This document shows, piece by piece, positions 1,931-62,108 of a stretch of DNA of 64,000 bases. Position 1 is the first letter of the stretch; every line of letters begins with the position of its first letter. The notes under the pieces are model-generated. The model saw only the letters and a program-made list of their open reading frames with translations. It did no database searches and had not been told where the DNA came from. The position numbers and the translations under genes were made by a program. The DNA comes from a virus. Its lineage: Duplodnaviria; Caudoviricetes. The stretch is from the IMG/VR virus record IMGVR_UViG_3300021400_000347, positions 1-64,000 of that record; one strand, 5' to 3'.

Positions 1931-2410
1931 ATGCTAGAATTTTCTAAAGAAGAAAATAAGCGTCTATGTGATACTTACCCCTTCCTAATTCCATCAAATC
2001 CATTTAGTGGAAAACGTATTAATAGCGGCGAAAAGGGCTTCTGGCCCGGCTCTCCTGATGAAATGCCAGAGTGGGATTACGAATATACTGAGCTTGATAA
2101 CGTGCCTGATGGATGGCGTCTTGCTTTTGGCGAACAAATGTGCGCAGAAATTAAGCAGGCACTTGTTGAAGAAGGGCTACTTGACGATTACCGTATTACT
2201 CAAATCAAGGAGAAGTATGGCTCTTTAAGATGGTATAGTAATTTTTCCACAAGAAAAATAGAGCGGATAATCGACAAATATGAAGAACTTAGTCTGCGCA
2301 CTTGTATTGTATGTGGCGCGCCCGCCACTAAATTAAGCAGAGGTTGGATTTGTCCATACTGTGACAAGTGCGCAGATCCAAATGAAGAGTTTGATGAATT
2401 AGATATTTGA
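1931..2410 (+). CDS. Phage hypothetical protein (QIKEKYGxLRWY motif, C-terminal Zn finger)
   Basis: RBS gagga before ATG 1931; CxxC..CxxC. Confidence 0.75.
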   Translation: MLEFSKEENKRLCDTYPFLIPSNPFSGKRINSGEKGFWPGSPDEMPEWDYEYTELDNVPDGWRLAFGEQMCAEIKQALVEEGLLDDYRITQIKEKYGSLRWYSNFSTRKIERIIDKYEELSLRTCIVCGAPATKLSRGWICPYCDKCADPNEEFDELDI

Positions 2411-2435
2411 CTTTTCCTAAAAATTTTGCTATAAT
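2407..2435 (+). promoter_or_regulatory. sigmaA-type promoter upstream of suppressor tRNA/DUF2828 unit
   Basis: TTGACT-N17-TATAAT. Confidence 0.85.
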
Positions 2436-2468
2436 ATATACATAAGGTGAGGGAAGAAACCTCCCTAT

Positions 2469-2557
2469 AGCCCCTTAGTTGAATGGCACAACAGCTGACT
2501 CTAAATCAGTAAGCGTGGCTGACACCGCGGGTCTGGGTTCGAATCCTAGAGGGGCTG
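2469..2557 (+). tRNA. Amber suppressor tRNA (anticodon CUA), long variable arm
   Basis: agcccct/aggggct acceptor, gctga-ctCTAaa-tcagt, 22-nt variable region, ctggg-ttcgaat-cctag, G73. Confidence 0.9.
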
Positions 2558-2615
2558 CTAAGGCTTGGGTAAGAGAACCCTGTAAGTAGTTGATAATGGA
2601 ACAATAACCTTGTAT

Positions 2616-2689
2616 CCGGGTGTAGCGCAGCTTGGTAGCGCATCTGCTTTGGGAGCAGAGGGCCACAGGTTCAAATCCTGTTACCCGGA
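2616..2689 (+). tRNA. tRNA-Pro(TGG)
   Basis: tctgc-ttTGGga-gcaga, cloverleaf. Confidence 0.95.
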
Positions 2690-2722
2690 CTGAACAAGAG
2701 AAGAGAAGAAGGAGAAAAGAAG

Positions 2723-4237
2723 ATGGACAACACTTTCACTAACGCCGCTCGTAAGGTGGCAACCTATACTACTACCGAAAATGGCCATGATGCCGTTTCC
2801 ACTACTGGTGCGGCCGTACTTGACCTTTATGGCCTTGTTGGCGCACTTCGTGGCGCAGACAAAAATCGCATTCAGGAGCTTTTTGCTCGTGCGATTGCGG
2901 AGGATAAACTCCTGGCCGCACGCACTATGTTCTACGCCCGTGATGCCCGTGGTGGTGTTGGTGAGCGCGACGTTTTCCGTACCATGCTCCACTATGCCGC
3001 TATTGCGCATCCGGAGATTGTGCGGCCTAACCTCAAGTATATCCCTGAGTTTGGCCGTTGGGATGATGTCTACGCTCTTGTGGATACTCCTCTTGAGAAG
3101 CAGGGCTTTGAGCTGATGGAGAATCAGCTTCATAACGACCTTGCCGCGCTTAAGCGTGGTGAGAGCATTAGCCTTCTCGCGAAGTGGCTGAAGAGTTGTA
3201 ATGCTTCTTCTTGGGTGACTCGTCGTCTTGGCGAGCTCACTGCTAAGTATTTTGGCCTTCCTGAAGCCCAGTATCGCCGTGTACTTAGCCGCCTGCGCAA
3301 CGCGATTAATATCGTAGAAACGCAGATGTCCCAGAGCAAGTGGTCAGAGATTGACTACTCTAAGCTTCCTAGCCGCGCTGGCCTTGTTCATCGTGAAGCT
3401 TTCAAGCGGCATGATGAGGATCGCTACTTCGATTTCATTACGCAGGTTAATGAGGGAAAGACTTCCATTCATACTGCGATGAATACTCCTCAGGATCTCG
3501 TCCATGTTTACATGGAGCAGGGCGACGAAGATGAAGATCCTACTGTAGAAGCGATGTGGAAGAATCTGCCCAACTTTGTTGGAACGGATGAAAACATCCT
3601 TTGTATGGTGGACGTAAGTGGCTCGATGAACGGGCGGCCAATGGAGGTATCGACTGGCCTTGGAATGTACTTCGCGCAGCGCAATACTGGCGCATTCCAT
3701 AACCTCATGCTCACCTTTGAGTCTAAGCCTGCGTTTGTCGCGCTTCGTGAGGGAGCTAGTCTGCGGCAATGTCTGATGGATACCCTACGAATGGGTTGGG
3801 GTGGTTCTACCAATCTAACCCTTGCTTGTCAGGAGATTTTGGACTTCGCTAAGAAGAATCATATCCCTGATAAAGATATGCCGCGGCGTTTCATCATTAT
3901 CTCCGACATGGAGATTGATGATGCTACTCGGGATTGGACCGGTTACTACCGTTATAAGGACACGATTGACCGCAGCAACATTCTCCATTGCGATGAACTG
4001 CGCGCGCAGTACGCCGCAGCAGGCTATACCATGCCGCAGGTCATCTACTGGAATGTTGCTTCTCGGGACAACCGATTCCAGACCCAATCCGACGTACCCG
4101 GCACCATGCTTGCTTCTGGTAGCTCTCCGGCTATTTTCAAGGCACTCATGGAAATGAAGGATCTTAACATCACTCCTCTGGATGCGATGCGCGAGGTTCT
4201 TAACAGCGAACGCTACAGTGTTATCACTGTAGAATAA
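2723..4237 (+). CDS. DUF2828-family Ro60/TROVE-like protein with C-terminal vWA domain
   Basis: TENG..STTG N-term, RDARGGVGER, GRWDD, LAKWL; vWA MIDAS DVSGSM, GGSTN, IISDME, YWNV. Confidence 0.85.
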   Translation: MDNTFTNAARKVATYTTTENGHDAVSTTGAAVLDLYGLVGALRGADKNRIQELFARAIAEDKLLAARTMFYARDARGGVGERDVFRTMLHYAAIAHPEIVRPNLKYIPEFGRWDDVYALVDTPLEKQGFELMENQLHNDLAALKRGESISLLAKWLKSCNASSWVTRRLGELTAKYFGLPEAQYRRVLSRLRNAINIVETQMSQSKWSEIDYSKLPSRAGLVHREAFKRHDEDRYFDFITQVNEGKTSIHTAMNTPQDLVHVYMEQGDEDEDPTVEAMWKNLPNFVGTDENILCMVDVSGSMNGRPMEVSTGLGMYFAQRNTGAFHNLMLTFESKPAFVALREGASLRQCLMDTLRMGWGGSTNLTLACQEILDFAKKNHIPDKDMPRRFIIISDMEIDDATRDWTGYYRYKDTIDRSNILHCDELRAQYAAAGYTMPQVIYWNVASRDNRFQTQSDVPGTMLASGSSPAIFKALMEMKDLNITPLDAMREVLNSERYSVITVE

Positions 4238-4246
4238 ATAAAATCT

Positions 4247-4511
4247 TTAGGCGCACACAGCAACTTTAAAAGTTCTTGAAAAACTTAAACGCGCCTAGTT
4301 AGGCACTTACAGCAAAGATTTTATGAATAATAATTTACTTTTAGGCACGCACAGCAACGATTGGGATTGAACATAGAATATGTTTACTACCGTGCCTAGT
4401 ACATAACTAAGACGCATACAGCAATTTATATGTATAATTGATTGGGTTGAATCATACAAAGCGCGTCTTGATTAGCACCACCTCCTCTGTCCGTATAACT
4501 TAAGTGCCTAG
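4247..4511 (+). repeat. Array of four TWAGRCRCDYACAGCAA stem-loop units (putative ncRNAs)
   Basis: Units start 4247, 4299, 4341, 4408; each 5' arm has a complementary 3' arm (4291-98, 4501-11, 4391-99, 4463-70) with compensatory changes. Confidence 0.85.
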
Positions 4512-4512
4512 T

Positions 4513-4544
4513 CGCGCCGTGTACAAAAGCACGGCGCGTTTTTT
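4513..4544 (+). terminator. Rho-independent terminator
   Basis: cgcgccgtgt-acaaaa-gcacggcgcg + T6. Confidence 0.85.
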
Positions 4545-4559
4545 GAAAGGAGAGCAAAT

Positions 4560-4994
4560 ATGAAATTATATACTTCATACTTTTATCAAATTAGATTCTT
4601 TCCTCGTAATTTAATTCCGCTATCTACGGTGGTCTGGCCGCCTAAATATCAAATTAAAGATAGCACAGGCGCGCCCGCATTGATTATTGATTGCCCGCCA
4701 CTTAAGCCTGGATCTGCGTGCGAAGGGCTTTGTCGTGGCGCGTGCTCACCGAAGCATCCGTCTAACTGTGATTTCTTAAAAGTCTATCATAAGCAACTAC
4801 AAGCTATTGATTTTACAAAGTTTATGCGCAAGCTAGAACATTTAAAGAAAATTATTGAAGAGCAAGAACATCTAGAGGATGTAAACTTTGCCTTTATTGT
4901 TTTTGAAGCCCCGACTAATTTATGTAGTGAAAGAGTAATAATTCAATCTTGGTTTGAAGAAAATGGTCTAGAAGTAAAAGAATGGCAGAGGTGA
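4560..4994 (+). CDS. Hypothetical protein, DUF488-like
   Basis: LYTSYF start; C-terminal FEAPxxxCSERxII..WF. Confidence 0.55.
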   Translation: MKLYTSYFYQIRFFPRNLIPLSTVVWPPKYQIKDSTGAPALIIDCPPLKPGSACEGLCRGACSPKHPSNCDFLKVYHKQLQAIDFTKFMRKLEHLKKIIEEQEHLEDVNFAFIVFEAPTNLCSERVIIQSWFEENGLEVKEWQR

Positions 4995-9280: not shown

Positions 9281-9354
9281 GCGCCATTAGTGTAATGGTA
9301 ACATTTCTGCCCTCCAAGCAGACGTTGACGGTTCGAGTCCGTTATGGCGCTCCA
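9281..9354 (+). tRNA. tRNA-Gly(TCC)
   Basis: tctgc-ccTCCaa-gcaga (C at 33), TCCA end. Confidence 0.88.
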
Positions 9355-9718
9355 TCAGGGCTGTGTTTAATGAGCACGGTCTTCGGAAAAAATTTTCCGT
9401 GTGACCAGTAAGTCTAAAAACTGCCGTGGGCTGAGTGTGACGCTCCGGGTCCATCGCATTATAATGCTGAGTTTCTCTTGACTCTGGGATGTTCCCTAAA
9501 TAAGATATTTAAATTAATAGGAGTCTTGAAGCTGTATTAGACTTAATACTCTCAATGCGGGCAACGTGGACGCACGATCCCGCGAACAAATCCTATTGAT
9601 ACTATAATGAGTAGATGCTTATCTACCTAGGACTATTGAGGACGCGAGCGGCGGGAATGTTTGAGCGGCAAAGCCGAAGGTAAATAGTCTAAGTACAGAC
9701 CACCTGAGTGTGGCCTGA
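9355..9718 (+). ncRNA. Large (~365 nt) unassigned structured RNA
   Basis: ORF-free gap between tRNAs; end pairings tcagg/cctga and ctgtgttta/taagtacag; taagtcta/tagactta; gactatt/aatagtc. Confidence 0.55.
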
Positions 9719-17303: not shown

Positions 17304-19286
17304 ATGGCTGAAAATAATGCAGCAATTAACATGCAAGATGCAATATTTTATCCAACAGATTTAAACTATGTTTTTTTTACATCATTAGAGGAATCTGAAA
17401 TTTATAAAAATAGACTGCCCGGTGGGATAGCTTCATTAATCTCAAACTTAACTTTTGAGCCAAATGGCATATCTAAAGAGTCCACTCGGATGAAAAATGC
17501 ATTAAAATTTTTAAGCGATGCAAAAAATGCTGCTCGCAGCTAGGAAATAGCTGCAATTAAATATTTTAAAGAACAAATAGAAAGTAAATTTGGTGGGAAA
17601 GGGAAAGTACCGGAAAAAATACAAGATTCTTTAAATGCAATAGATAAAGGTGAAGAAAATATATCAAGAATTGTAATTGCTTTTCGTGCATTAAGGCAAC
17701 GCGTTGATGAATATAAACGTTTATTACAAGAAAAAGGTGCTCCATATTTTGAAACACAAGTCCAAAAAATGGCAGAGAGTTTTATTTTAGCGCCTTAGCT
17801 ACAACAAGATACGATAAACATAGAACTAGCTTAGAAAAAAACAGGAGAAACTGAATTCGAGACCCTGGCAGTCGCACGAGAAATGTATACAGATATACGC
17901 GGTATAATTGATGCACAATTAGGCCAACAAATTAAACAAGTAGCAACTACAATTGCATCTTATCTCCCAAAATATAATCCTCAGTAGATCGTACAATTAC
18001 TTTATACTGCTATTTTTATTGATTATTCTTTTTATATTAGTAATTCAATCACACCTGAGTCAATTAATGCTATTTTAGAGCAGGCAGTCTAGCCATCAAC
18101 TTTTAACAACTATTTATCCAACAAAACATTATTCTCCCAATATATAGCTAATCCAAGTCAATATATTGAACAATTAAAACATAGTATAACAAGTTTACAA
18201 GATCAATTAGGTATTTAGATACTTAATCGTAGTATGTTAAAAAAAATGACTCAAACAGTGAATGCCGCAAAAAAAGACAAAAAGAAATCTCCAAAGGATA
18301 CCCGTTGGTTTAGAAACGCAAAGAAAATTGCTAAAAATACAGCAACAAAACAAAAAGATGCTGTTACTGTTAAATTTCACACAAAACAATCTCATGGTTT
18401 TATGAATGAGGCTATGCTCACTATTTTTTAGCCCGCGGTAAATGTAAAAGCAAATGTTGGTATTGATAACATTGTTGAGCTAGGTGAAGTTGAGTTTAAA
18501 TTTCCATCTTTATTACCTAAGTTAAATGATGCATTAACGAGCCATTTTAATGCCTTATTAAAAAAAGATAATCCTCTTGATGGAACTATAGAAACAAATA
18601 TAGAGTATCAACAAAAATTAACTGGTGATATCAGTGATGCAATTAGGGCAGCAATAACATAGCGTCAACAAGAATTATCCGAGATTGAAGGCATTATAGA
18701 TGAGTTCATCAGTTATGAAACTTTAAAATTATATACGCAAAGAGTAGGCGATTCATTAAGTGGACGTTCCATGGTAATTGAAAATGCATTAGGTAAAATT
18801 GGAGCTGGTTTATCTGCAGATGGATTAACCCCTGCCGATATTATCTCCTTAAAACCATATATATTAAATTTAACCACATCAACCTTAGGTGGGAATAATA
18901 AACCAAAATTAGAAGAATATCTTTCTTATTTTTCTGCTCTATTGATGTTTGATGATTTACCAGGAATTGTTGATCCTGTTATAAAGGCTGCGAAGCAAGT
19001 ACAAGTACATTAGCTCTATATTTATAATTTTTAGAACTAGCAATACCCAATGTCAGTAGTTTTAGAGTATTTACTTAATTTTTTTAACGATTTAAATAAA
19101 TTCTATACAGATGCATTTTATGCTGAAATTACACAGCCAGAAAATTTAAACGTATTAAATACAGAAACATCAGCAACCACTGAGACAGCATGGAATACAA
19201 TAAGAGATTACACTTGGAGTAATACAAAACTAGAATTACATATGTCTTGGAATATGTTAGCTGCATTAGAATCATTACTCTCATAA
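17304..19286 (+). CDS. Large hypothetical protein, 660 aa, TAG-rich (possibly virion-associated)
   Basis: RBS ggaggtg; four track fragments in one frame separated by TAG. Confidence 0.75.
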
Positions 19287-56694: not shown

Positions 56695-56738
56695 AAAAAT
56701 AAGTGCCCCTCCCGTAATGGGAGGGGCTTATTTTTTTA
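56693..56738. terminator. Bidirectional terminator between convergent arms
   Basis: A-tract, gcccctccc-gtaat-gggaggggc, T-tract. Confidence 0.85.
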
Positions 56739-59700
56739 TGGATAATAGTAAACTGTACAAGGCACACGAGATGTGGTTGTATCATTAGTACAAATTAATC
56801 TTATATTACTAATTGAAAAGTTTCGACTGGTAACAGTACCGCCGTTAATGGAAACGGACGCGGAAATATAATAATATATATCTGTATCTTCTTTACATAA
56901 ATTATATGTTTCTGGTTCCTATAGTTTTACAGTGCAAATACTGCCAGTGCCATCACCGACTGCTCCAGAGTAACCAACTGAGTTAATTGGATTTGCTGTA
57001 TAAGCGCTATTAGAAAACTATAATCTAACAGGAGCCGATGAATAATTATTACTGTTCATGGCAGTATTTGATAAATAAATTGTAAAATTATCAATAGAAA
57101 CAGAACCGCCGCTGTTCTATTCTCGAGTCGGTCCTTTAAACGTAAGCGCCATCTAATATTGATAAAAAGAAGCGCCATCCCCAAAAGATGTAGTATTACC
57201 GCCCGCCTATGTTAAATGACCAGTTAAACTAATTGAATAAGAATTGCTGGTTCCAGTTCCGCTTAAATTTGAACAATTATAAGTAATTGAAGAATCATAG
57301 AAAGGTCTAATTAAGACCCAATCATGCTAACCGTTCATTTCCCCTTCGATGCCCTCTACACTGCTTCTCCATGCATCAGCCCCGTCGGCATTGGGGTTCA
57401 TAATAATAATATCCCCTCTACTCCAAACATCTTCACCGTTAATCTAAATCGCGGCGGAATTAACCTATAATCCATTTTGACCCATAATAATAGAAACATC
57501 GTTATCATTAGTGTCGCGAGTATTTAAACTAATGCCATTAGAATTCATATGAATATAATTATCATTACTATAATCAAAATTAATACAAGTCTAATTAATT
57601 GTAACCGCGGCTTCATTTCCATTCTTAGCAATAATTATACCTGTATCGTAATTTGTATTTGCGCCGATTAATAAATTATCAGTAGAAGTAATAGCAACTT
57701 TATATGTATTTCCATTCCATTGATAATTAGAACTTATTCCATCAATCGTAAAATTGTCAGGAATTGTAGGAGCATCACTAATATTACTATAAGGAATTTT
57801 TACCCCTTGTGCTAACTAAAAACTGGTAGCAGTAATTGCTCCTTCAATAATCGCATCAGTAGCTCTTAATTGTCCCGATTTAGTTACACTAAAATGCGCG
57901 TATGTTGTAACACCATTTTCAGTCTTTTCTGGAGATTCATCCCCAGCCCATAACGCATAAGCATTGGTACTGTCACTATTTAAACCAACATAGCTTGTAT
58001 TAGCACCAGAGTGTAATGAATTAGTATCTATAGTCCATCCGCCTATAGCGCCACTAGTAGCTGTTATTGCGCCAGTGATATTTAAATCACCAGTATCAGG
58101 ATCGGCATAAAACACTTCTTGCCCAGCATAATTTCTTAATTTAAACCCATCCCAACTAATTTCTACTCTATCAACATCTTGATTTGTAGTCACTAAACTG
58201 CCTTCAATATGCGTTCCCTCGCCATTTTCATTAGCGACTTCTTGTTCATTTATTCCAACTATTGCGCCGCTTAACGCACGCAAAAATAATCCTTCACTAT
58301 TATGAACAACATATTGTTTACTATCATACCCGGCATTATTAATAGTATCATTTAATTGTGTTGATAAGCTTTCTCTATTCTTAATAACAGGAGTTTCTTG
58401 ATCATCCTCTGTCCTATTAAGCTAATTGCTAATAGTCTAGCTGTTAGTTTTATATGCGAATAAACCATCAGCGTTTAATTGAAATCTTAAGGTGTCTCCA
58501 GCATATACCCTAATTCTATTAGTATCTAACTACCCAGTAGTAATCAAATCCGCATTAATTCCAGCTGGTGTAATACCTGTATTCCAAATCCAATTATCAT
58601 TTTCATCTTTACGAGTAGCAGTAAATATACCGCCGCCGCGCATAGCAACTACACCGCTATCACTTGTAGCCCAAATGCCATTTGCGTTATCAATCGTCAA
58701 AGTGCCTTGATTAAATTGATAATCTAAATTAGCATGACGCATTGTATTAGCAATAGTATCTTCATTAATATTTCCATCCGCGGTAAAAGCCGCCGCGGCC
58801 AGACCTATTGTTGCTGAGTTCTTCTACATCTATTGCGTCTGCGCGACAATAGTAGAGAAGAGATCCTCAAATTTATTTTTGTAATTCTTTATTTTAACAG
58901 AATCTTCCCAAGGCTTGTCTAAAGAAAGTTCTAGCTCCGAGACATAACCTAAAACATTTCTAAATTGAAGTTCATAGTCATTAATGCTGGCGATATGCCC
59001 TAGTAAATTATATGCTTCTTCAATTAGCTATTTGTTAATTACATTTAAAGACACTTCATATTCTACCTTTGGATATGCGTTCTATTTTGCGATTTCTAAC
59101 GCATCTAAATAAATGGAAGTGGTTGCGTTAGAAATAGAATAGCTTAATTCTACAGGAATATCATTATTATACCAATTTGTAATAAATGATCTAATATATG
59201 GAGAAATGAAATAAGCATCATAAACTTCATTCTAGGTAGTTACATGCTATGAAAGTACGCTATAATCGACGAACTCTGCGAGCATTCTATCGGCATAGCG
59301 CAGGAGTAGTTCATCGGAAGAGGTCTTTAAATACATATTCGCTATTTGAATATGAGGATAATAAAGATCATTGTCAGCGCTACATTGACCAAAAGAAAAT
59401 ACCTAATTAGAATCAATAAAAGATAGTTCATCATTATCATTAAACTTGATTATACCGATTTTTGGATCAGAATGTTGAATATGCTCTGCTTCAGGAGTAG
59501 TATAAACACAACTTACCTCCCCGTTTGTAGCAGTAATTGTTTGCTTACTTACTCCGGCAGTAATATTAAAATAATAATATTCTAATCCTTTGTCTGTGAT
59601 AATTTCCTATGTATTGCCCTATACGTCAGTATAGGTAATCGTCATAGCAGGCCACTCGTTCTCAACTTGCTAATTATTTTTCACAGCCACACCGATAGTT

Positions 59701-62084
59701 GTGCCCTATTTCGCATTAACTACAGACGTATTAGTACAATTTTCCCAATTAATTTGGCCAGAAGTTGTAATGGCGTCAAATGTTGCATCATCAATACTAT
59801 CTTCCTAAGTGCCAGTCAATAATAGCACAGGAATATACTTATCGCCCTCTTTAACGATAGCATACTACATCCTTGAGCCAATAGTATATACTTTTCTAAA
59901 AGCTAAAGTGTGATGTGCTGGATCAGTGTCGCGGCTATCATAGAAAATAAAACTAAATTGATCTTTACCAGTTGTATTAATCCAACTCATCAGTTCTTGG
60001 CTGATTCTAATATAATAATAATATTGACGTTCCTAACTAACGCCAATCTCATAATATGCCTTCTATTCGCCAAACTCGTCCTGCGGCGGCTACCAGATAA
60101 CCGTGGGCTAAGCATATTTGCTTAATTTGCCGTTTATTTTCTTTAAGTCCTTGGTCACCGCATTTTTGTCACCATAGTCCTTATAATCATCTTCTGGCTG
60201 CCAATATCCTTCACGGATGGCCGCGCCCATAATGCGCTCAAATTCAGCAATTCGCGCGCGCTTCTTCTCGAGAGCAGTTGAAAGGTTAGGCAAAACGTTA
60301 TTGTTTAAAGTATTATTTAAATTCTCAACTTGTTCATCTGCCTTCTCCTTTTCATCCTCATCCTTATTTAATTTCTATTGCCACATTTTTTTAACAGCTT
60401 CATAATATAGCTGTGGCGCATAGGTATAGACGGCATAGAAGAATGCTGATGAATTGATTGTTTCATCGCTCTCTTCGGTTAATGTCTTTGTTAGCACGAT
60501 ATTCTCAATGCGAGTTAAGTAACCAAATTCATCTGTAATAATTTTAGCATTTTCTAAGCTAATTTTCGTGTCTGGATTAACTTTATTAGTGCTAAAATTT
60601 TTCTTCTCATATAACTTAATACTACCAGCTAAGATACCTTTTTCGGTTAGTTCAACGTAGTAAGTATATTTATATAAATTAGGCCCATCCTCTTGTTCGA
60701 TTTTTTCCATATCCTAACTTGGAATAGCTGTTACCGGTTTAGAAATCTCTAACTGTGCTAAATCAATAACGCCAGTATTGTTAGTGATTTGATTCAACAA
60801 ATCATCCGCGGCAGAAAGCTACTCTTTATCACCTTTAATAGAGTTTTCTAGAATCGTCTAGCGCGCAAGCAGGCCATTTGTGGTATTATTAAGTAAATAC
60901 TCAATGTTACGCTACTCAGCCTGTAGCGTAGAAATCTCATTATTTAATTTCTTAATATCAACTTCAAATTGCTTAAGCTCTTCTTCCTAGTCAGGAGTAA
61001 TACAACCGATAGTTTTTAGATAATCGAAATTAAGAATATAATCCTCACCGAGCTTATTTGCTTCGGTATTCATAATCGTAAGAGCTTCTCCGCTATCGTT
61101 TCCACCACCACCAGGTTCTAGAACGAATAGCTTTGTGGCTACATCATTAGCATCACTGGTACGGGTTACCTCGGACGTATCATATGGATAATTTATATCA
61201 AATGTGCCTTCGCCCTCCATAAGATACTCATCATAATATATAACTTTTTTCCCAGTGATTTCAAAGGTCACAGGATTATGTTCATATTCATATCGGCAGA
61301 AGACACCAAAAGTTTTCGCAATGTTTTGCGTTAAATTATAAACATTACTATCTTTTTCATCAATTAAACGGCACTTTTCTTTACCGACTTCATAATTAGT
61401 AGAAACCAATTTATTATCCTGAACCGTCCAAGAAGATACGTAGTCATCTTCATAAACCTTATCCGCGGCTAAACCTTTACCCTGATTCATAGCGTGGGAC
61501 ATTCTTACTTCATATGTCCATTGCCATTTATTCTTCCCATCTAGTGTAAAAATCTTATCATTCCAATACTGAATATTGTTTATTGGCAAAGGTGGCCGTT
61601 CCTATGTCAGCTCATCAGGAACTGCTTCAAACGCCTCATTATATTCATTGTAATAGGCGTCTTTCTATAAAGCAATACGGTATCCAATTTTTCCTAATTC
61701 GTGGAAAGCTAATCCTTCACAATTAACTTCACATGTAAGCTAAAATCCGGAATGCTTCTCGCTCACTTTAGTAATAAGCATTTCATATATAACCGGTTTA
61801 TTACTGCCTTTCTTAAAGATAAGCTTAATCTTCCTTAGCGCGGCGACTAGGTTACCATTTATCTTGTTTACCCATAGTGGATTCTGTATTCTCCTTCCTT
61901 CGGCATTCATGTAATACATTGGTATAGAAAAGCTAAATTCTTCGGTTCCATCATCCTTAATGGAAAATTTAGGCTCCTATAATTGACCTTTTATCTCTAC
62001 ATCATAGGGCTTCAGGACAGATAGAAATCTGTCCTGAAGCGTCCATATAGAGACTTCATAATTTCTTACCATACGCTCATACAT
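56736..62084 (-). CDS. Large tail/baseplate (Tal/host-specificity-like) protein, ~1782 aa, TAG-rich
   Basis: RBS aggaggag; five track fragments share this frame; NIAKTFGVF, coiled coil, GINADLITTG, GAIGGWTI. Confidence 0.75.
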
Positions 62085-62108
62085 TATTCAGTCTCCTCCT
62101 TTAACTCA

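What the first reader, a model, noticed from the sequence alone, without database searches (positions are those of the whole stretch)
2407..4544. Ro60/TROVE-like DUF2828 gene co-transcribed with a nested array of covarying ACAGCAA stem-loop RNAs: candidate phage ribonucleoprotein system
Seen: between the DUF2828 stop (4237) and a terminator (4513) lie four copies of TWAGRCRCDYACAGCAA. Each 5' arm pairs with its own 3' arm: ttaggcgc/gcgcctag, ttaggcactta/taagtgcctag, ttaggcacg/cgtgcctag, taagacgc/gcgtcttg. Substitutions between units are compensatory, ACAGCAA is invariant, and the enclosed sequences all differ. Unit 2 (4299-4511) encloses units 3 and 4. One promoter (2407) could drive suppressor tRNA, tRNA-Pro, the gene and the array. 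Known: Ro60/Rsr proteins (TROVE+vWA) bind a conserved stem of adjacent Y RNAs, and bacterial YrlA RNAs carry tRNA-like modules. Inference: a constant protein-binding handle carrying variable payloads, i.e. a Y-RNA-analogous family loaded on DUF2828, possibly for tRNA protection, decoying or RNA quality control.
Basis: partly seen in the sequence, partly recalled or inferred. Interest (0 to 1): 0.92.

Follow-up and report, generated by a model that had tools for sequence, protein, structure and literature searches.

The report
Phage Ro-like protein's partner RNA family
Behind a phage gene for a Ro60-shaped protein lie four small folded RNAs that share one constant "handle", and the same handle turns up beside this gene family in very different phages, which points to an undescribed counterpart of the Ro60/Y-RNA particle.

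Summary
Four units at 4247-4511 share a closing stem followed by NN-ACAGCAA. Unit 2 encloses units 3 and 4. A promoter-like site lies at 2407 and a terminator at 4513.

A covariance model built from such units found 215 matches in 80 viral loci chosen only by DUF2828 protein similarity. Of these, 214 lie on the gene's strand and none of the best 150 lies inside the gene. In whole-record scans, 14 of 14 records with the gene hold the RNA, against 0 of 24 records without it. The helix covaries at 7 of 8 pairs.

The motif also sits beside the gene in cultured phages of Staphylococcus, Listeria, Enterococcus, Bacillus, Mycobacterium, E. coli, Campylobacter and Fusobacterium. In some units the loop holds a YrlA-like rotated tRNA.

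The predicted protein structure matches Ro60 over its whole length (Z 15). It fails Pfam TROVE, and the RNA fails Rfam YrlA and lacks the CGAA-type Ro motif. A canonical phage Ro60 locus (Bxz1) lacks the new motif.

Best reading: a second, phage-borne Ro/Y-type ribonucleoprotein. The association is shown; binding and function are inferred. I found it neither in Rfam 15 nor in the papers I could search.

The parts
2407..2435 (+). sigma-70-type promoter-like site (TTGACT, 17 nt, TATAAT, with TG extension) in front of the two tRNAs, the gene and the RNA array
   Evidence: 11 of 12 hexamer positions match. This is a consensus match only; transcription is not shown.
2469..2558 (+). suppressor-type tRNA with anticodon CTA and a long variable arm
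   Evidence: ARAGORN; Rfam tRNA, 57.4 bits.
2616..2690 (+). tRNA-Pro (TGG)
2723..4237 (+). Gene for a 504-aa protein of the DUF2828 + DUF7788/vWA family, with a predicted Ro60-like ring plus vWA fold and an intact MIDAS DxSxS motif
   Evidence: Pfam. PHROG 850 'RNA-binding protein', E 2.5e-123. Structure model. Ro60 as best structural match. D297, S299 and S301 invariant in 9 homologues.
4247..4298 (+). RNA unit 1: 7-8 bp closing stem, NN-ACAGCAA, 27-nt loop
   Evidence: Covariance model R1: 46.7 bits, E 2e-9. Fold.
4298..4512 (+). RNA unit 2: the same handle with a 10-12 bp closing stem whose loop holds units 3 and 4 plus about 30 nt of unique sequence
   Evidence: (I3, arms 100% complementary), (present in the minimum-energy fold). 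R1 does not find it because the insert is long.
4341..4399 (+). RNA unit 3
   Evidence: R1: 43.0 bits, E 1.9e-8. Fold -16.4 kcal/mol, z -3.43.
4408..4470 (+). RNA unit 4
   Evidence: R1: 49.1 bits, E 5e-10. Fold.
4513..4545 (+). intrinsic terminator (10-bp G+C-rich stem, T run) that closes the unit

Best explanation
The four units are genes for small structured RNAs of one family. The family's constant part is a 7-8 bp closing helix whose 5' strand runs on, after two free bases, into single-stranded ACAGCAA. I read this constant part as the docking handle for the Ro60-shaped DUF2828 protein encoded just upstream. Together they would form a phage ribonucleoprotein analogous to Ro60/Y RNA.

The variable loop is the payload. 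In this window the payloads are plain loops, and in unit 2 the payload is two further handles, so one RNA could carry up to three rings. In relatives the payload is often a tRNA-like module.

By analogy with Ro60/Y RNA, the handle would sit on the ring. The payload would then tether or gate a host RNA enzyme such as an exoribonuclease, or mimic tRNA, during infection by phages that bring their own tRNA sets. Copies in the gene's 5' leader may also let the protein limit its own synthesis.

Shown: the family exists, its helix is kept at the RNA level, it co-occurs with the gene, and the protein is predicted to have the Ro60 fold. Inferred: binding, transcription and processing, and the downstream function.
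For: 1. Association in loci chosen by protein only. In 80 viral loci (715 kb, 62 clusters at 90% nucleotide identity), model R1 gave 215 matches at E<=1, 214 of them on the gene strand. The best 150 lie in 52 of the 80 loci: 127 upstream of the gene, 23 downstream and 0 inside it. A plain count gave ACAGCAA 324 times on the gene strand and 38 on the other. Stem-closed units numbered 177 in 67 loci on the gene strand, against 10 on the other.

2. Co-occurrence in whole records. 14 of 14 records with the gene have 2-8 matches each. 0 of 24 records without it (1.24 Mb) have any. One 54%-complete fragment has matches at its contig start and no gene.

3. The converse search. A scan for the DNA pattern alone returned 11 of 80 fully flanked loci with a DUF2828 homologue (33-68% identity) within 2.5 kb.

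4. RNA-level helix. 7 of 8 pairs show double changes. 91.5% of cells are paired, against 75.6% in shuffles and 22-54% when the partner is slid. G-U pairs are present (seed set).

5. Breadth. In bacterial genomes and MAGs, 45 of 45 matches are on the gene strand, in 30 of 80 loci. In cultured phages, R1 matches 9 of 12 loci, and the motif with flanking arms is visible by eye in the other 3.

6. Specificity. R1 gives 0 matches around the canonical TROVE Ro60 gene of phage Bxz1, with filters off and E<=10.

7. Protein. Ro60 entries fill Foldseek ranks 1-12, and Z reaches 15.0 over 412 residues. The next fold is a vWA domain alone at Z 8.9.

8. Y-RNA likeness. In relatives the handle encloses T arm, sealed acceptor and D arm. 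One such unit matches Rfam YrlA over the full model at 37.7 bits.

9. Loops diverge while handles stay. The nearest relative (protein 68-69% identical) has three units in the same place with unrelated loops.
Against: No experiment or tool here shows that the protein binds the RNA.

Transcription is not shown. Contigs from RNA libraries of two studies hold 4253-4503 with 0 differences, but such libraries can contain DNA.

The model was seeded with units picked by my own stem finder, and alignments A3 and A4 are fitted to the model, so the pair counts lean towards the structure. E-values come from a shortened calibration.

12 of the 80 viral loci have no match even at E<=1, and 50 of the 80 genome loci have none at E<=0.01.

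Some units lie 15-60 kb from the gene, two of them on the other strand.

Sequence profiles link the protein to Ro60 only through the vWA half, so the ring rests on a predicted structure.

No tRNA-like module is detectable in the four units of this window.
Confidence: 0.72

Rival explanations
1. The units are only cis-acting elements of the DUF2828 messenger. They would be leader or trailer structures through which the protein, or another factor, controls the gene's own translation or stability, and not free RNAs with a job of their own.
For: In bacterial-genome loci the usual picture is one or two units ending 13-35 nt before the start codon, with the ribosome site just behind them. In Fusobacterium phage FNU2 the order is promoter, unit, gene. 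In Vibrio phage nt-1 an ACAGCAA hairpin can enclose the ribosome site and the ATG.
Against: In this window all four units lie behind the stop codon. Many loci have 3-6 copies. Copies lie inside tRNA arrays and 6-60 kb from the gene. Some payloads are complete tRNA-like domains. The nt-1 hairpin is weak: -2.9 kcal/mol, z -0.15. Autoregulation can coexist with the main reading.
Confidence: 0.15
2. The units are processing, stability or termination signals of phage tRNA-array transcripts, read by host RNases. They would have no direct tie to the DUF2828 protein.
For: They sit in and beside tRNA arrays, filling unannotated gaps between tRNA genes. Examples are Bacillus phage Skywalker and E. coli phage EC6.
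Against: 0 of 24 records without the gene hold a match, while 14 of 14 with it do. Loci without tRNAs nearby still carry the motif next to the gene, for example Staphylococcus phage 6ec and FNU2. An invariant single-stranded heptamer across phages of at least five bacterial phyla does not fit host-specific RNase sites.
Confidence: 0.06
3. The repeats act as DNA: as recombination hot spots, protein-binding sites or a small mobile repeat.
For: One RNA-library contig carries the same array joined to unlike upstream sequence, with the break inside a handle. This would fit exchange at the repeats.
Against: Strand bias is 214 to 1 and 45 to 0. G-U pairs would be mismatches on the other strand. Arms covary while the loops are unrelated.
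Confidence: 0.03

Closest known systems
Ro60 (Rsr) with Y RNAs, especially bacterial and phage YrlA (Chen et al. 2014, PMC4201824: abstract, sections 5 and 6, methods passage and Table S2 read)
   Same: A ring-plus-vWA protein gene has one to several small RNA genes within a few kb on the same strand. Each RNA has a closing stem, a conserved motif on the stem's 5' side and a large loop. In part of the family the loop holds a rotated tRNA (T arm, sealed acceptor, D arm). Both lie next to tRNA genes, and in one phage next to an RtcB-type ligase.
   Different: The protein matches Pfam DUF2828/DUF7788, not TROVE/vWA_Ro60. The conserved RNA motif is ACAGCAA behind the helix, not GNCGAAN0-1G or GGUCCGA. 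Rfam YrlA does not match the window's units. Most units are 50-70 nt with no tRNA-like part. The 22 phages in that paper's Table S2 are C1 mycobacteriophages, Bacillus phage G and CcrColossus; the one I fetched, Bxz1, carries canonical TROVE Ro60.
Thermus phage phiLo Ro60 with Yrl1/Yrl2 (Hu et al. 2025, PMC12135203: abstract and found passages read; PDB 9KOP, 9L5Y)
   Same: A phage-encoded Ro60-type ring is paired with phage-encoded Y-like RNAs upstream of its gene. These structures are among the best structural matches of the model (Z 15.0 and 14.1). The paper reports binding to host PNPase, which gives a concrete idea of what such a particle may do.
   Different: The phiLo RNAs were picked by the CGAA motif. 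The family here has another handle, and its protein shares only 16-18% identity with phiLo Ro60 in the structural alignment.
Database labels 'Ro-like RNA binding protein' / 'RNA-binding protein' / 'vWFA protein' on DUF2828 genes of cultured phages (PHROG 850)
   Same: This is the same protein family. 704 of 50,697 phage records hold a homologue. The Ro-likeness of the protein is therefore already on record.
   Different: These are labels only. None of the 12 phage records I fetched annotates an RNA gene at the motif sites. The 5 papers that mention DUF2828 concern plants or a tardigrade, by their search listing.

Membership tests
Pfam DUF2828 (PF11443) + DUF7788 (PF25043) / PHROG 850 | Match to the family profiles above the curated cut-off | tested here: met
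   DUF7788 scores 114.9 bits (cut-off 27.1) and DUF2828 104.3 bits (cut-off 29). PHROG 850: E 2.5e-123.
Ro60 / TROVE protein family | Match to Pfam TROVE (PF05731) and vWA_Ro60 (PF25045) | tested here: not met
   Neither profile is listed at E<=0.01. Bxz1 Ro60, as a control, matches both. Sequence searches against the PDB find no Ro60. hhalign against Bxz1 Ro60 aligns only the vWA half: probability 89.6%, E 1.9e-6.
Ro60 / TROVE protein family | Fold: helical-repeat ring closed by a vWA domain | tested here: met
   This rests on a predicted model only (pLDDT 78.9, pTM 0.72). Foldseek ranks 1-12 are all Ro60 entries, E 8.5e-8 to 6.6e-6. VIA-align gives Z 11.9-15.0 for ten Ro60 entries, with 379-416 residues aligned; the next match is Z 8.9 for a vWA domain alone.
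Ro60 / TROVE protein family | MIDAS motif (DxSxS plus T and D) in the vWA domain | tested here: met
   D297, S299, S301, T363 and D395 are invariant in 9 homologues. That these positions form the MIDAS motif is my recalled reading of the pattern.
Ro60 / TROVE protein family | Binds Y RNA on the ring surface and misfolded RNA ends in the hole | not testable with these tools
   No protein-RNA tool was on hand.
Y RNA / YrlA (Rfam RF00019, RF02553) | Match to the Rfam covariance model at its gathering score | tested here: not met
   No match at 4240-4510 at E<=1. The best match in relatives is 37.7 bits against a gathering score of 69, on a unit of L023.
Y RNA / YrlA (Rfam RF00019, RF02553) | Encoded near the Ro-type gene on the same strand | tested here: met
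   Window: the units start 10 nt behind the stop codon. Relatives: 214 of 215, and 45 of 45, matches on the gene strand.
Y RNA / YrlA (Rfam RF00019, RF02553) | Conserved Ro-binding motif GNCGAAN0-1G / GGUCCGA on the 5' strand of the terminal stem | tested here: not met
   The conserved 5' element here is WWAGRCRC-NN-ACAGCAA. The Y RNA motif is as given in PMC4201824, section 6.
Y RNA / YrlA (Rfam RF00019, RF02553) | tRNA-like domain (T arm, acceptor-like hairpin, D arm) in the loop | tested here: inconclusive
   None is detected in the window's four units. It is present in some relatives: L023, Snenia and iF6, and 3 of 137 distinct units have both arms by regular expression.

The most novel reading that the evidence does not exclude
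DUF2828 proteins and ACAGCAA-handle RNAs form a second, phage-borne Ro/Y-type particle. It is present in hundreds of sequenced phages that carry tRNA sets, among them Felix-O1-like coliphages, Listeria and Enterococcus herelleviruses, cluster L mycobacteriophages and Staphylococcus phage 6ec.

Its handle is a portable module. It appears on plain loops, on rotated tRNA mimics, inside normal-order tRNA-like genes in place of the anticodon arm, and, in this window, nested so that one RNA could assemble three rings.

The particle would use its tRNA-shaped or other payloads to capture or blunt a host RNA enzyme (an exoribonuclease, a tRNA repair factor or a tRNA-cutting defence factor), and so protect the phage's translation programme.
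Probability: 0.35. Interest if true: 0.9.

Novelty: new variant of a known kind. Interest (0 to 1): 0.8.

Why it matters
Ro60 and its Y RNAs are a long-studied particle whose job in bacteria, and above all in phages, is still only partly understood.

This work gives a large, uncharacterised phage protein family a specific, testable RNA partner. The family has 704 of 50,697 phage records and hundreds of metagenomic loci. The work defines the partner's recognition element to the base.

It also explains many unannotated gaps in phage tRNA arrays. And it shows that the "handle plus tRNA mimic" design has arisen, or diverged, with a completely different handle.

Several carriers grow on laboratory strains: Felix-O1-like phages isolated on E. 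coli K-12 MG1655, and cluster L phages on M. smegmatis mc2 155. Binding, structure and phenotype can therefore be tested at once.

Tried and rejected
1. The single-protein scan of viral contigs found no relative. The profile scan did.

2. Rfam gave nothing at the units, in the window or in 11 related loci, apart from tRNA and one sub-threshold YrlA match.

3. Sequence and profile searches of the PDB gave no Ro60. Only the fold comparison did.

4. No RtcB was found in the window's own record, which is 76% complete.

5. RNA libraries. Four runs were laid. Only 4253-4503 was covered at 100% identity, in X1 and X2. X3 and X4 covered only the tRNA-Pro region, at 90-99% likeness, plus a short gene fragment at 90-95%. 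Missing cover over the gene is not interpretable, because the X1 contig runs on into unlike sequence and these are contigs, not reads.

6. The hairpin around the start codon in Vibrio phage nt-1 is too weak to count as evidence.

7. I looked for a sequence that ACAGCAA could pair with inside the units and saw none. A loose WUGG motif occurs in 25 of 108 short loops, and I did not test it against chance.

8. PHROG search of three frames read with TAG=Q gave no family for two of them, and a homing endonuclease for the third.

9. Look-ups of earlier scan notes by place and by sequence gave nothing.

10. Literature. No paper describing an RNA partner of DUF2828 or this motif came up in searches. 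Subscription-only papers are not covered.

11. Complex prediction was not used, because it takes no RNA.
Full report
WHAT IS IN THE WINDOW

The window is the first 64 kb of a 132.9-kb linear virus record, rated 76% complete. Its left end is a tRNA region with 18 tRNA genes, all on the + strand.

At 2407-2435 there is a near-consensus promoter-like site. It is followed by a tRNA with anticodon CTA (2469-2558) and tRNA-Pro (2616-2690). Next comes a 504-codon gene (2723-4237), which matches Pfam DUF2828 and DUF7788/vWA and PHROG 850 "RNA-binding protein".

Ten bases behind its stop codon the four units begin. Each unit has a complementary 3' arm. The arms of unit 2 (4300-4309 and 4501-4510) enclose units 3 and 4. 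The whole stretch folds that way, more stably than any of 100 shuffles. A strong intrinsic terminator follows at 4513.

IS IT A FAMILY, AND DOES IT GO WITH THE GENE?

A scan of the viral collection for the bare 17-nt pattern returned many single hits. Most are chance. In 11 of the 80 loci fetched with full flanks, however, a DUF2828 homologue (33-68% identical) lay within 2.5 kb on the same strand, and several further units stood around it.

I aligned 27 such units (A2) and built a covariance model, R1, from an 8-bp closing helix plus NN-ACAGCAA. The seed units were chosen by my own stem finder, so the real tests are on independent material.

Test 1: loci chosen by protein only.
- A profile of nine homologues (A1) fetched 80 viral loci with 4-kb flanks: 715 kb, forming 62 clusters at 90% nucleotide identity.
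- R1 found 215 matches at E<=1, of which 214 are on the gene's strand and 1 on the other.
- The best 150 (E below about 0.01) lie in 52 of the 80 loci (40 of 62 clusters), with 1-6 per locus. Of these, 127 are upstream of the gene, 23 downstream and 0 inside it.
- By my reading of the table, 68 of the 80 loci have at least one match at E<=1 and 12 have none.
- A model-free count agrees. ACAGCAA occurs 324 times on the gene strand and 38 on the other. Stem-closed units number 177 in 67 loci on the gene strand, against 10 on the other.

Test 2: co-occurrence.
- Of the 69 pattern-hit loci without the gene in their flanks, 23 had R1 matches at E<=0.01.
- I searched the whole records of 22 of these. 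One was not held.
- I also searched 26 of the 46 records without a match. One was not held, and 19 were left out because of a 50-handle limit.
- The gene was present in 14 of the 22 records with matches and in 0 of the 26 without. All 5 matched records that are at least 90% complete have it. The 8 that lack it are fragments, 1-54% complete.
- Scanning whole records with R1 gave 2-8 matches in 14 of 14 gene-bearing records and none in 24 of 24 gene-less records (1.24 Mb). A fifteenth record, a fragment, had two matches near its contig start.
- In the gene-bearing records 53 of 55 matches are on the gene's strand.

Test 3: other collections.
- In 80 loci from bacterial genomes and MAGs (mostly Lachnospiraceae and other gut Firmicutes, likely prophages or binned phage contigs), 45 of 45 matches at E<=0.01 are on the gene strand, in 30 loci. 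Most are just upstream of the start codon.
- In 12 loci from GenBank phage records, R1 matched 9. All 21 matches at E<=1 are on the gene strand.
- In the other three (Vibrio nt-1, Campylobacter F358, Fusobacterium FNU2) ACAGCAA with flanking complementary arms is visible directly in front of the gene.
- The carriers include Staphylococcus phage 6ec (three units right behind the gene), Bacillus phage Skywalker (four units filling gaps in and after its tRNA array), Listeria phage LMTA-57, Enterococcus phage iF6, Mycobacterium phage Snenia (cluster L) and the Felix-O1-like coliphage EC6.

Test 4: specificity. Around the canonical TROVE Ro60 gene of mycobacteriophage Bxz1, R1 finds nothing, even without filters and at E<=10.

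THE RNA

The consensus over 150 independent matches has four parts:
- a 5' arm WWAGRCRC;
- two free bases, then ACAGCAA (C, A and G invariant in all 150; the second C in 149);
- a loop with a median unit length of 63 nt (range 38-125);
- a 3' arm GYGYCUWG, ending in a G that is kept in 147 of 150 although it mostly cannot pair.

Seven of the eight pairs show changes on both sides. 91.5% of cells pair, against 75.6% in shuffles and 22-54% with slid partners, and G-U pairs occur. That alignment is fitted to the model, which favours the structure. The strand bias and the G-U pairs nevertheless argue for RNA and against a DNA element.

Loops are unrelated even between the window and its nearest relative L062. 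There the protein is 68-69% identical and three units sit in the same place, followed by the same downstream gene. Selection is therefore on the handle.

PAYLOADS

Most units are plain. In a minority the loop holds a T arm, a sealed acceptor-like hairpin and a D arm in that order, which is the rotated-tRNA design of YrlA. One such unit in L023 matches Rfam YrlA end to end at 37.7 bits, below the gathering score of 69. The Snenia unit folds in exactly this way, and phage iF6 has several. One unit in L023 encloses a complete tRNA-like sequence.

The converse also exists. Genes that Rfam scores as tRNA (45-49 bits) have the anticodon arm replaced by a small hairpin followed by NN-ACAGCAA (L011, L016, L010). 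Geometrically this is the same junction: a helix whose strand runs 3' into the heptamer. The other end is the open one, so the two forms are circular permutations of one design.

The window's own peculiarity is unit 2, whose payload is two further handles.

THE PROTEIN

Sequence methods do not link it to Ro60, apart from the vWA half by profile comparison.

The AlphaFold model (pLDDT 78.9, pTM 0.72) has Ro60 structures from frog, human, Deinococcus and Thermus phage phiLo as its 12 best Foldseek matches. VIA-align gives Z 11.9-15.0 over 379-416 residues, well above the vWA-only matches at Z 8.9 or lower. The DxSxS metal-site residues are invariant.

The protein is therefore Ro60-shaped, but it fails the TROVE profile test. 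I file it as a separate family with a Ro60-like fold.

WHAT IS KNOWN

Chen et al. 2014 (PMC4201824) found YrlA RNAs near TROVE-annotated Ro60 genes in 254 bacteria and 22 phages. Their Table S2 lists C1 mycobacteriophages, Bacillus phage G and CcrColossus, none of them a phage named in my DUF2828 hit lists. The conserved motif there is GNCGAAN0-1G.

Hu et al. 2025 (PMC12135203; abstract and passages read) solved phiLo Ro60. They showed that it binds two CGAA-motif Y-like RNAs and host PNPase.

Iyer et al. 2021 (PMC7824862; one passage read) mention TROVE proteins with a tRNA-like partner in some jumbo phages.

DUF2828 genes are labelled "Ro-like RNA binding protein" in actinophage records. I found no paper or Rfam family for their RNA.

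HOW IT MOST LIKELY WORKS

Shown:
- a covarying, strand-specific RNA family;
- strict co-occurrence with one protein family;
- a predicted Ro60-like fold;
- tRNA-like payloads in part of the family;
- a position in tRNA regions, between a promoter-like site and a terminator.

Inferred:
- The ring protein docks on the helix-plus-ACAGCAA junction, much as Ro60 contacts mainly the 5' strand of the Y RNA stem (PMC4201824, section 6).
- The payload recruits or blocks a host RNA enzyme.
- Leader copies give feedback on the gene's own translation.

Weak support for expression: contigs from RNA libraries of two studies hold 4253-4503 without a difference.

VERDICT

This is a real, widespread and apparently undescribed RNA partner family for a Ro60-like phage protein. 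I class it as a new variant of a known kind.

Noticed in passing
window 2469-2558; 56736-62087 (-); 17304-19286 (+); L062 about 2700-2760: The phage probably reads TAG as a sense codon in part of its genes. With TAG open, frames of 150 aa or more rise from 12,164 to 20,126 aa in total. One 1783-aa frame holds 40 in-frame TAGs. A tRNA with anticodon CTA lies under the same promoter-like site as the DUF2828 gene. In L062 a TAG stands where the window's homologous gene (4560-4994) has CAA. The DUF2828 gene itself has no in-frame TAG.
   Followed up: partly
window 9358-9455 (+): A sub-threshold but strong match to the Rfam motif cow-rumen-3 (RF03083; 76.8 bits against a gathering score of 86.7, E 4e-16), directly behind tRNA-Gly 9281-9354.
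   Followed up: no
L011 2065-2177; L016 2365-2478; L010 2554-2666: tRNA-like genes in normal order (acceptor, D and T arms intact; Rfam tRNA 45-49 bits) whose anticodon arm is replaced by a hairpin plus NN-ACAGCAA and a long insert. This is the circular permutation of the YrlA-like units.
   Followed up: partly
window 4253-4503: Contigs from metatranscriptome libraries of two studies match the array with 0 differences. One 1244-nt contig runs on upstream into unlike sequence that itself ends in an ACAGCAA-like stretch, with the break inside the handle of unit 1. This may reflect exchange between phages at the handles, or an assembly break at the repeat.
   Followed up: no
L201 (Listeria phage LMTA-57) 6841-8052: An RtcB-type 'tRNA-splicing ligase' gene lies 1.3 kb downstream of the DUF2828 gene. 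This recalls the bacterial rsr-Y RNA-rtcB operons. The window's own record has no RtcB.
   Followed up: partly
L203 (Vibrio phage nt-1) 3918-3968: An ACAGCAA hairpin whose 3' arm overlaps the start codon of the DUF2828 gene and whose loop holds the ribosome site. It is weak thermodynamically (-2.9 kcal/mol).
   Followed up: partly
L212 (contig of a Bacteroidales MAG): This is the closest homologue in the genome collection (63% identity). It has two units before and two after the gene, and is a possible hint to the host group of the window's phage.
   Followed up: no
window 4359-4378 and 4440-4459: Units 3 and 4 share a second short motif in their loops (GAUUGGGWUUGAAYC-like). Similar WUGG stretches occur in 25 of 108 short units elsewhere. 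I did not test this against chance.
   Followed up: partly
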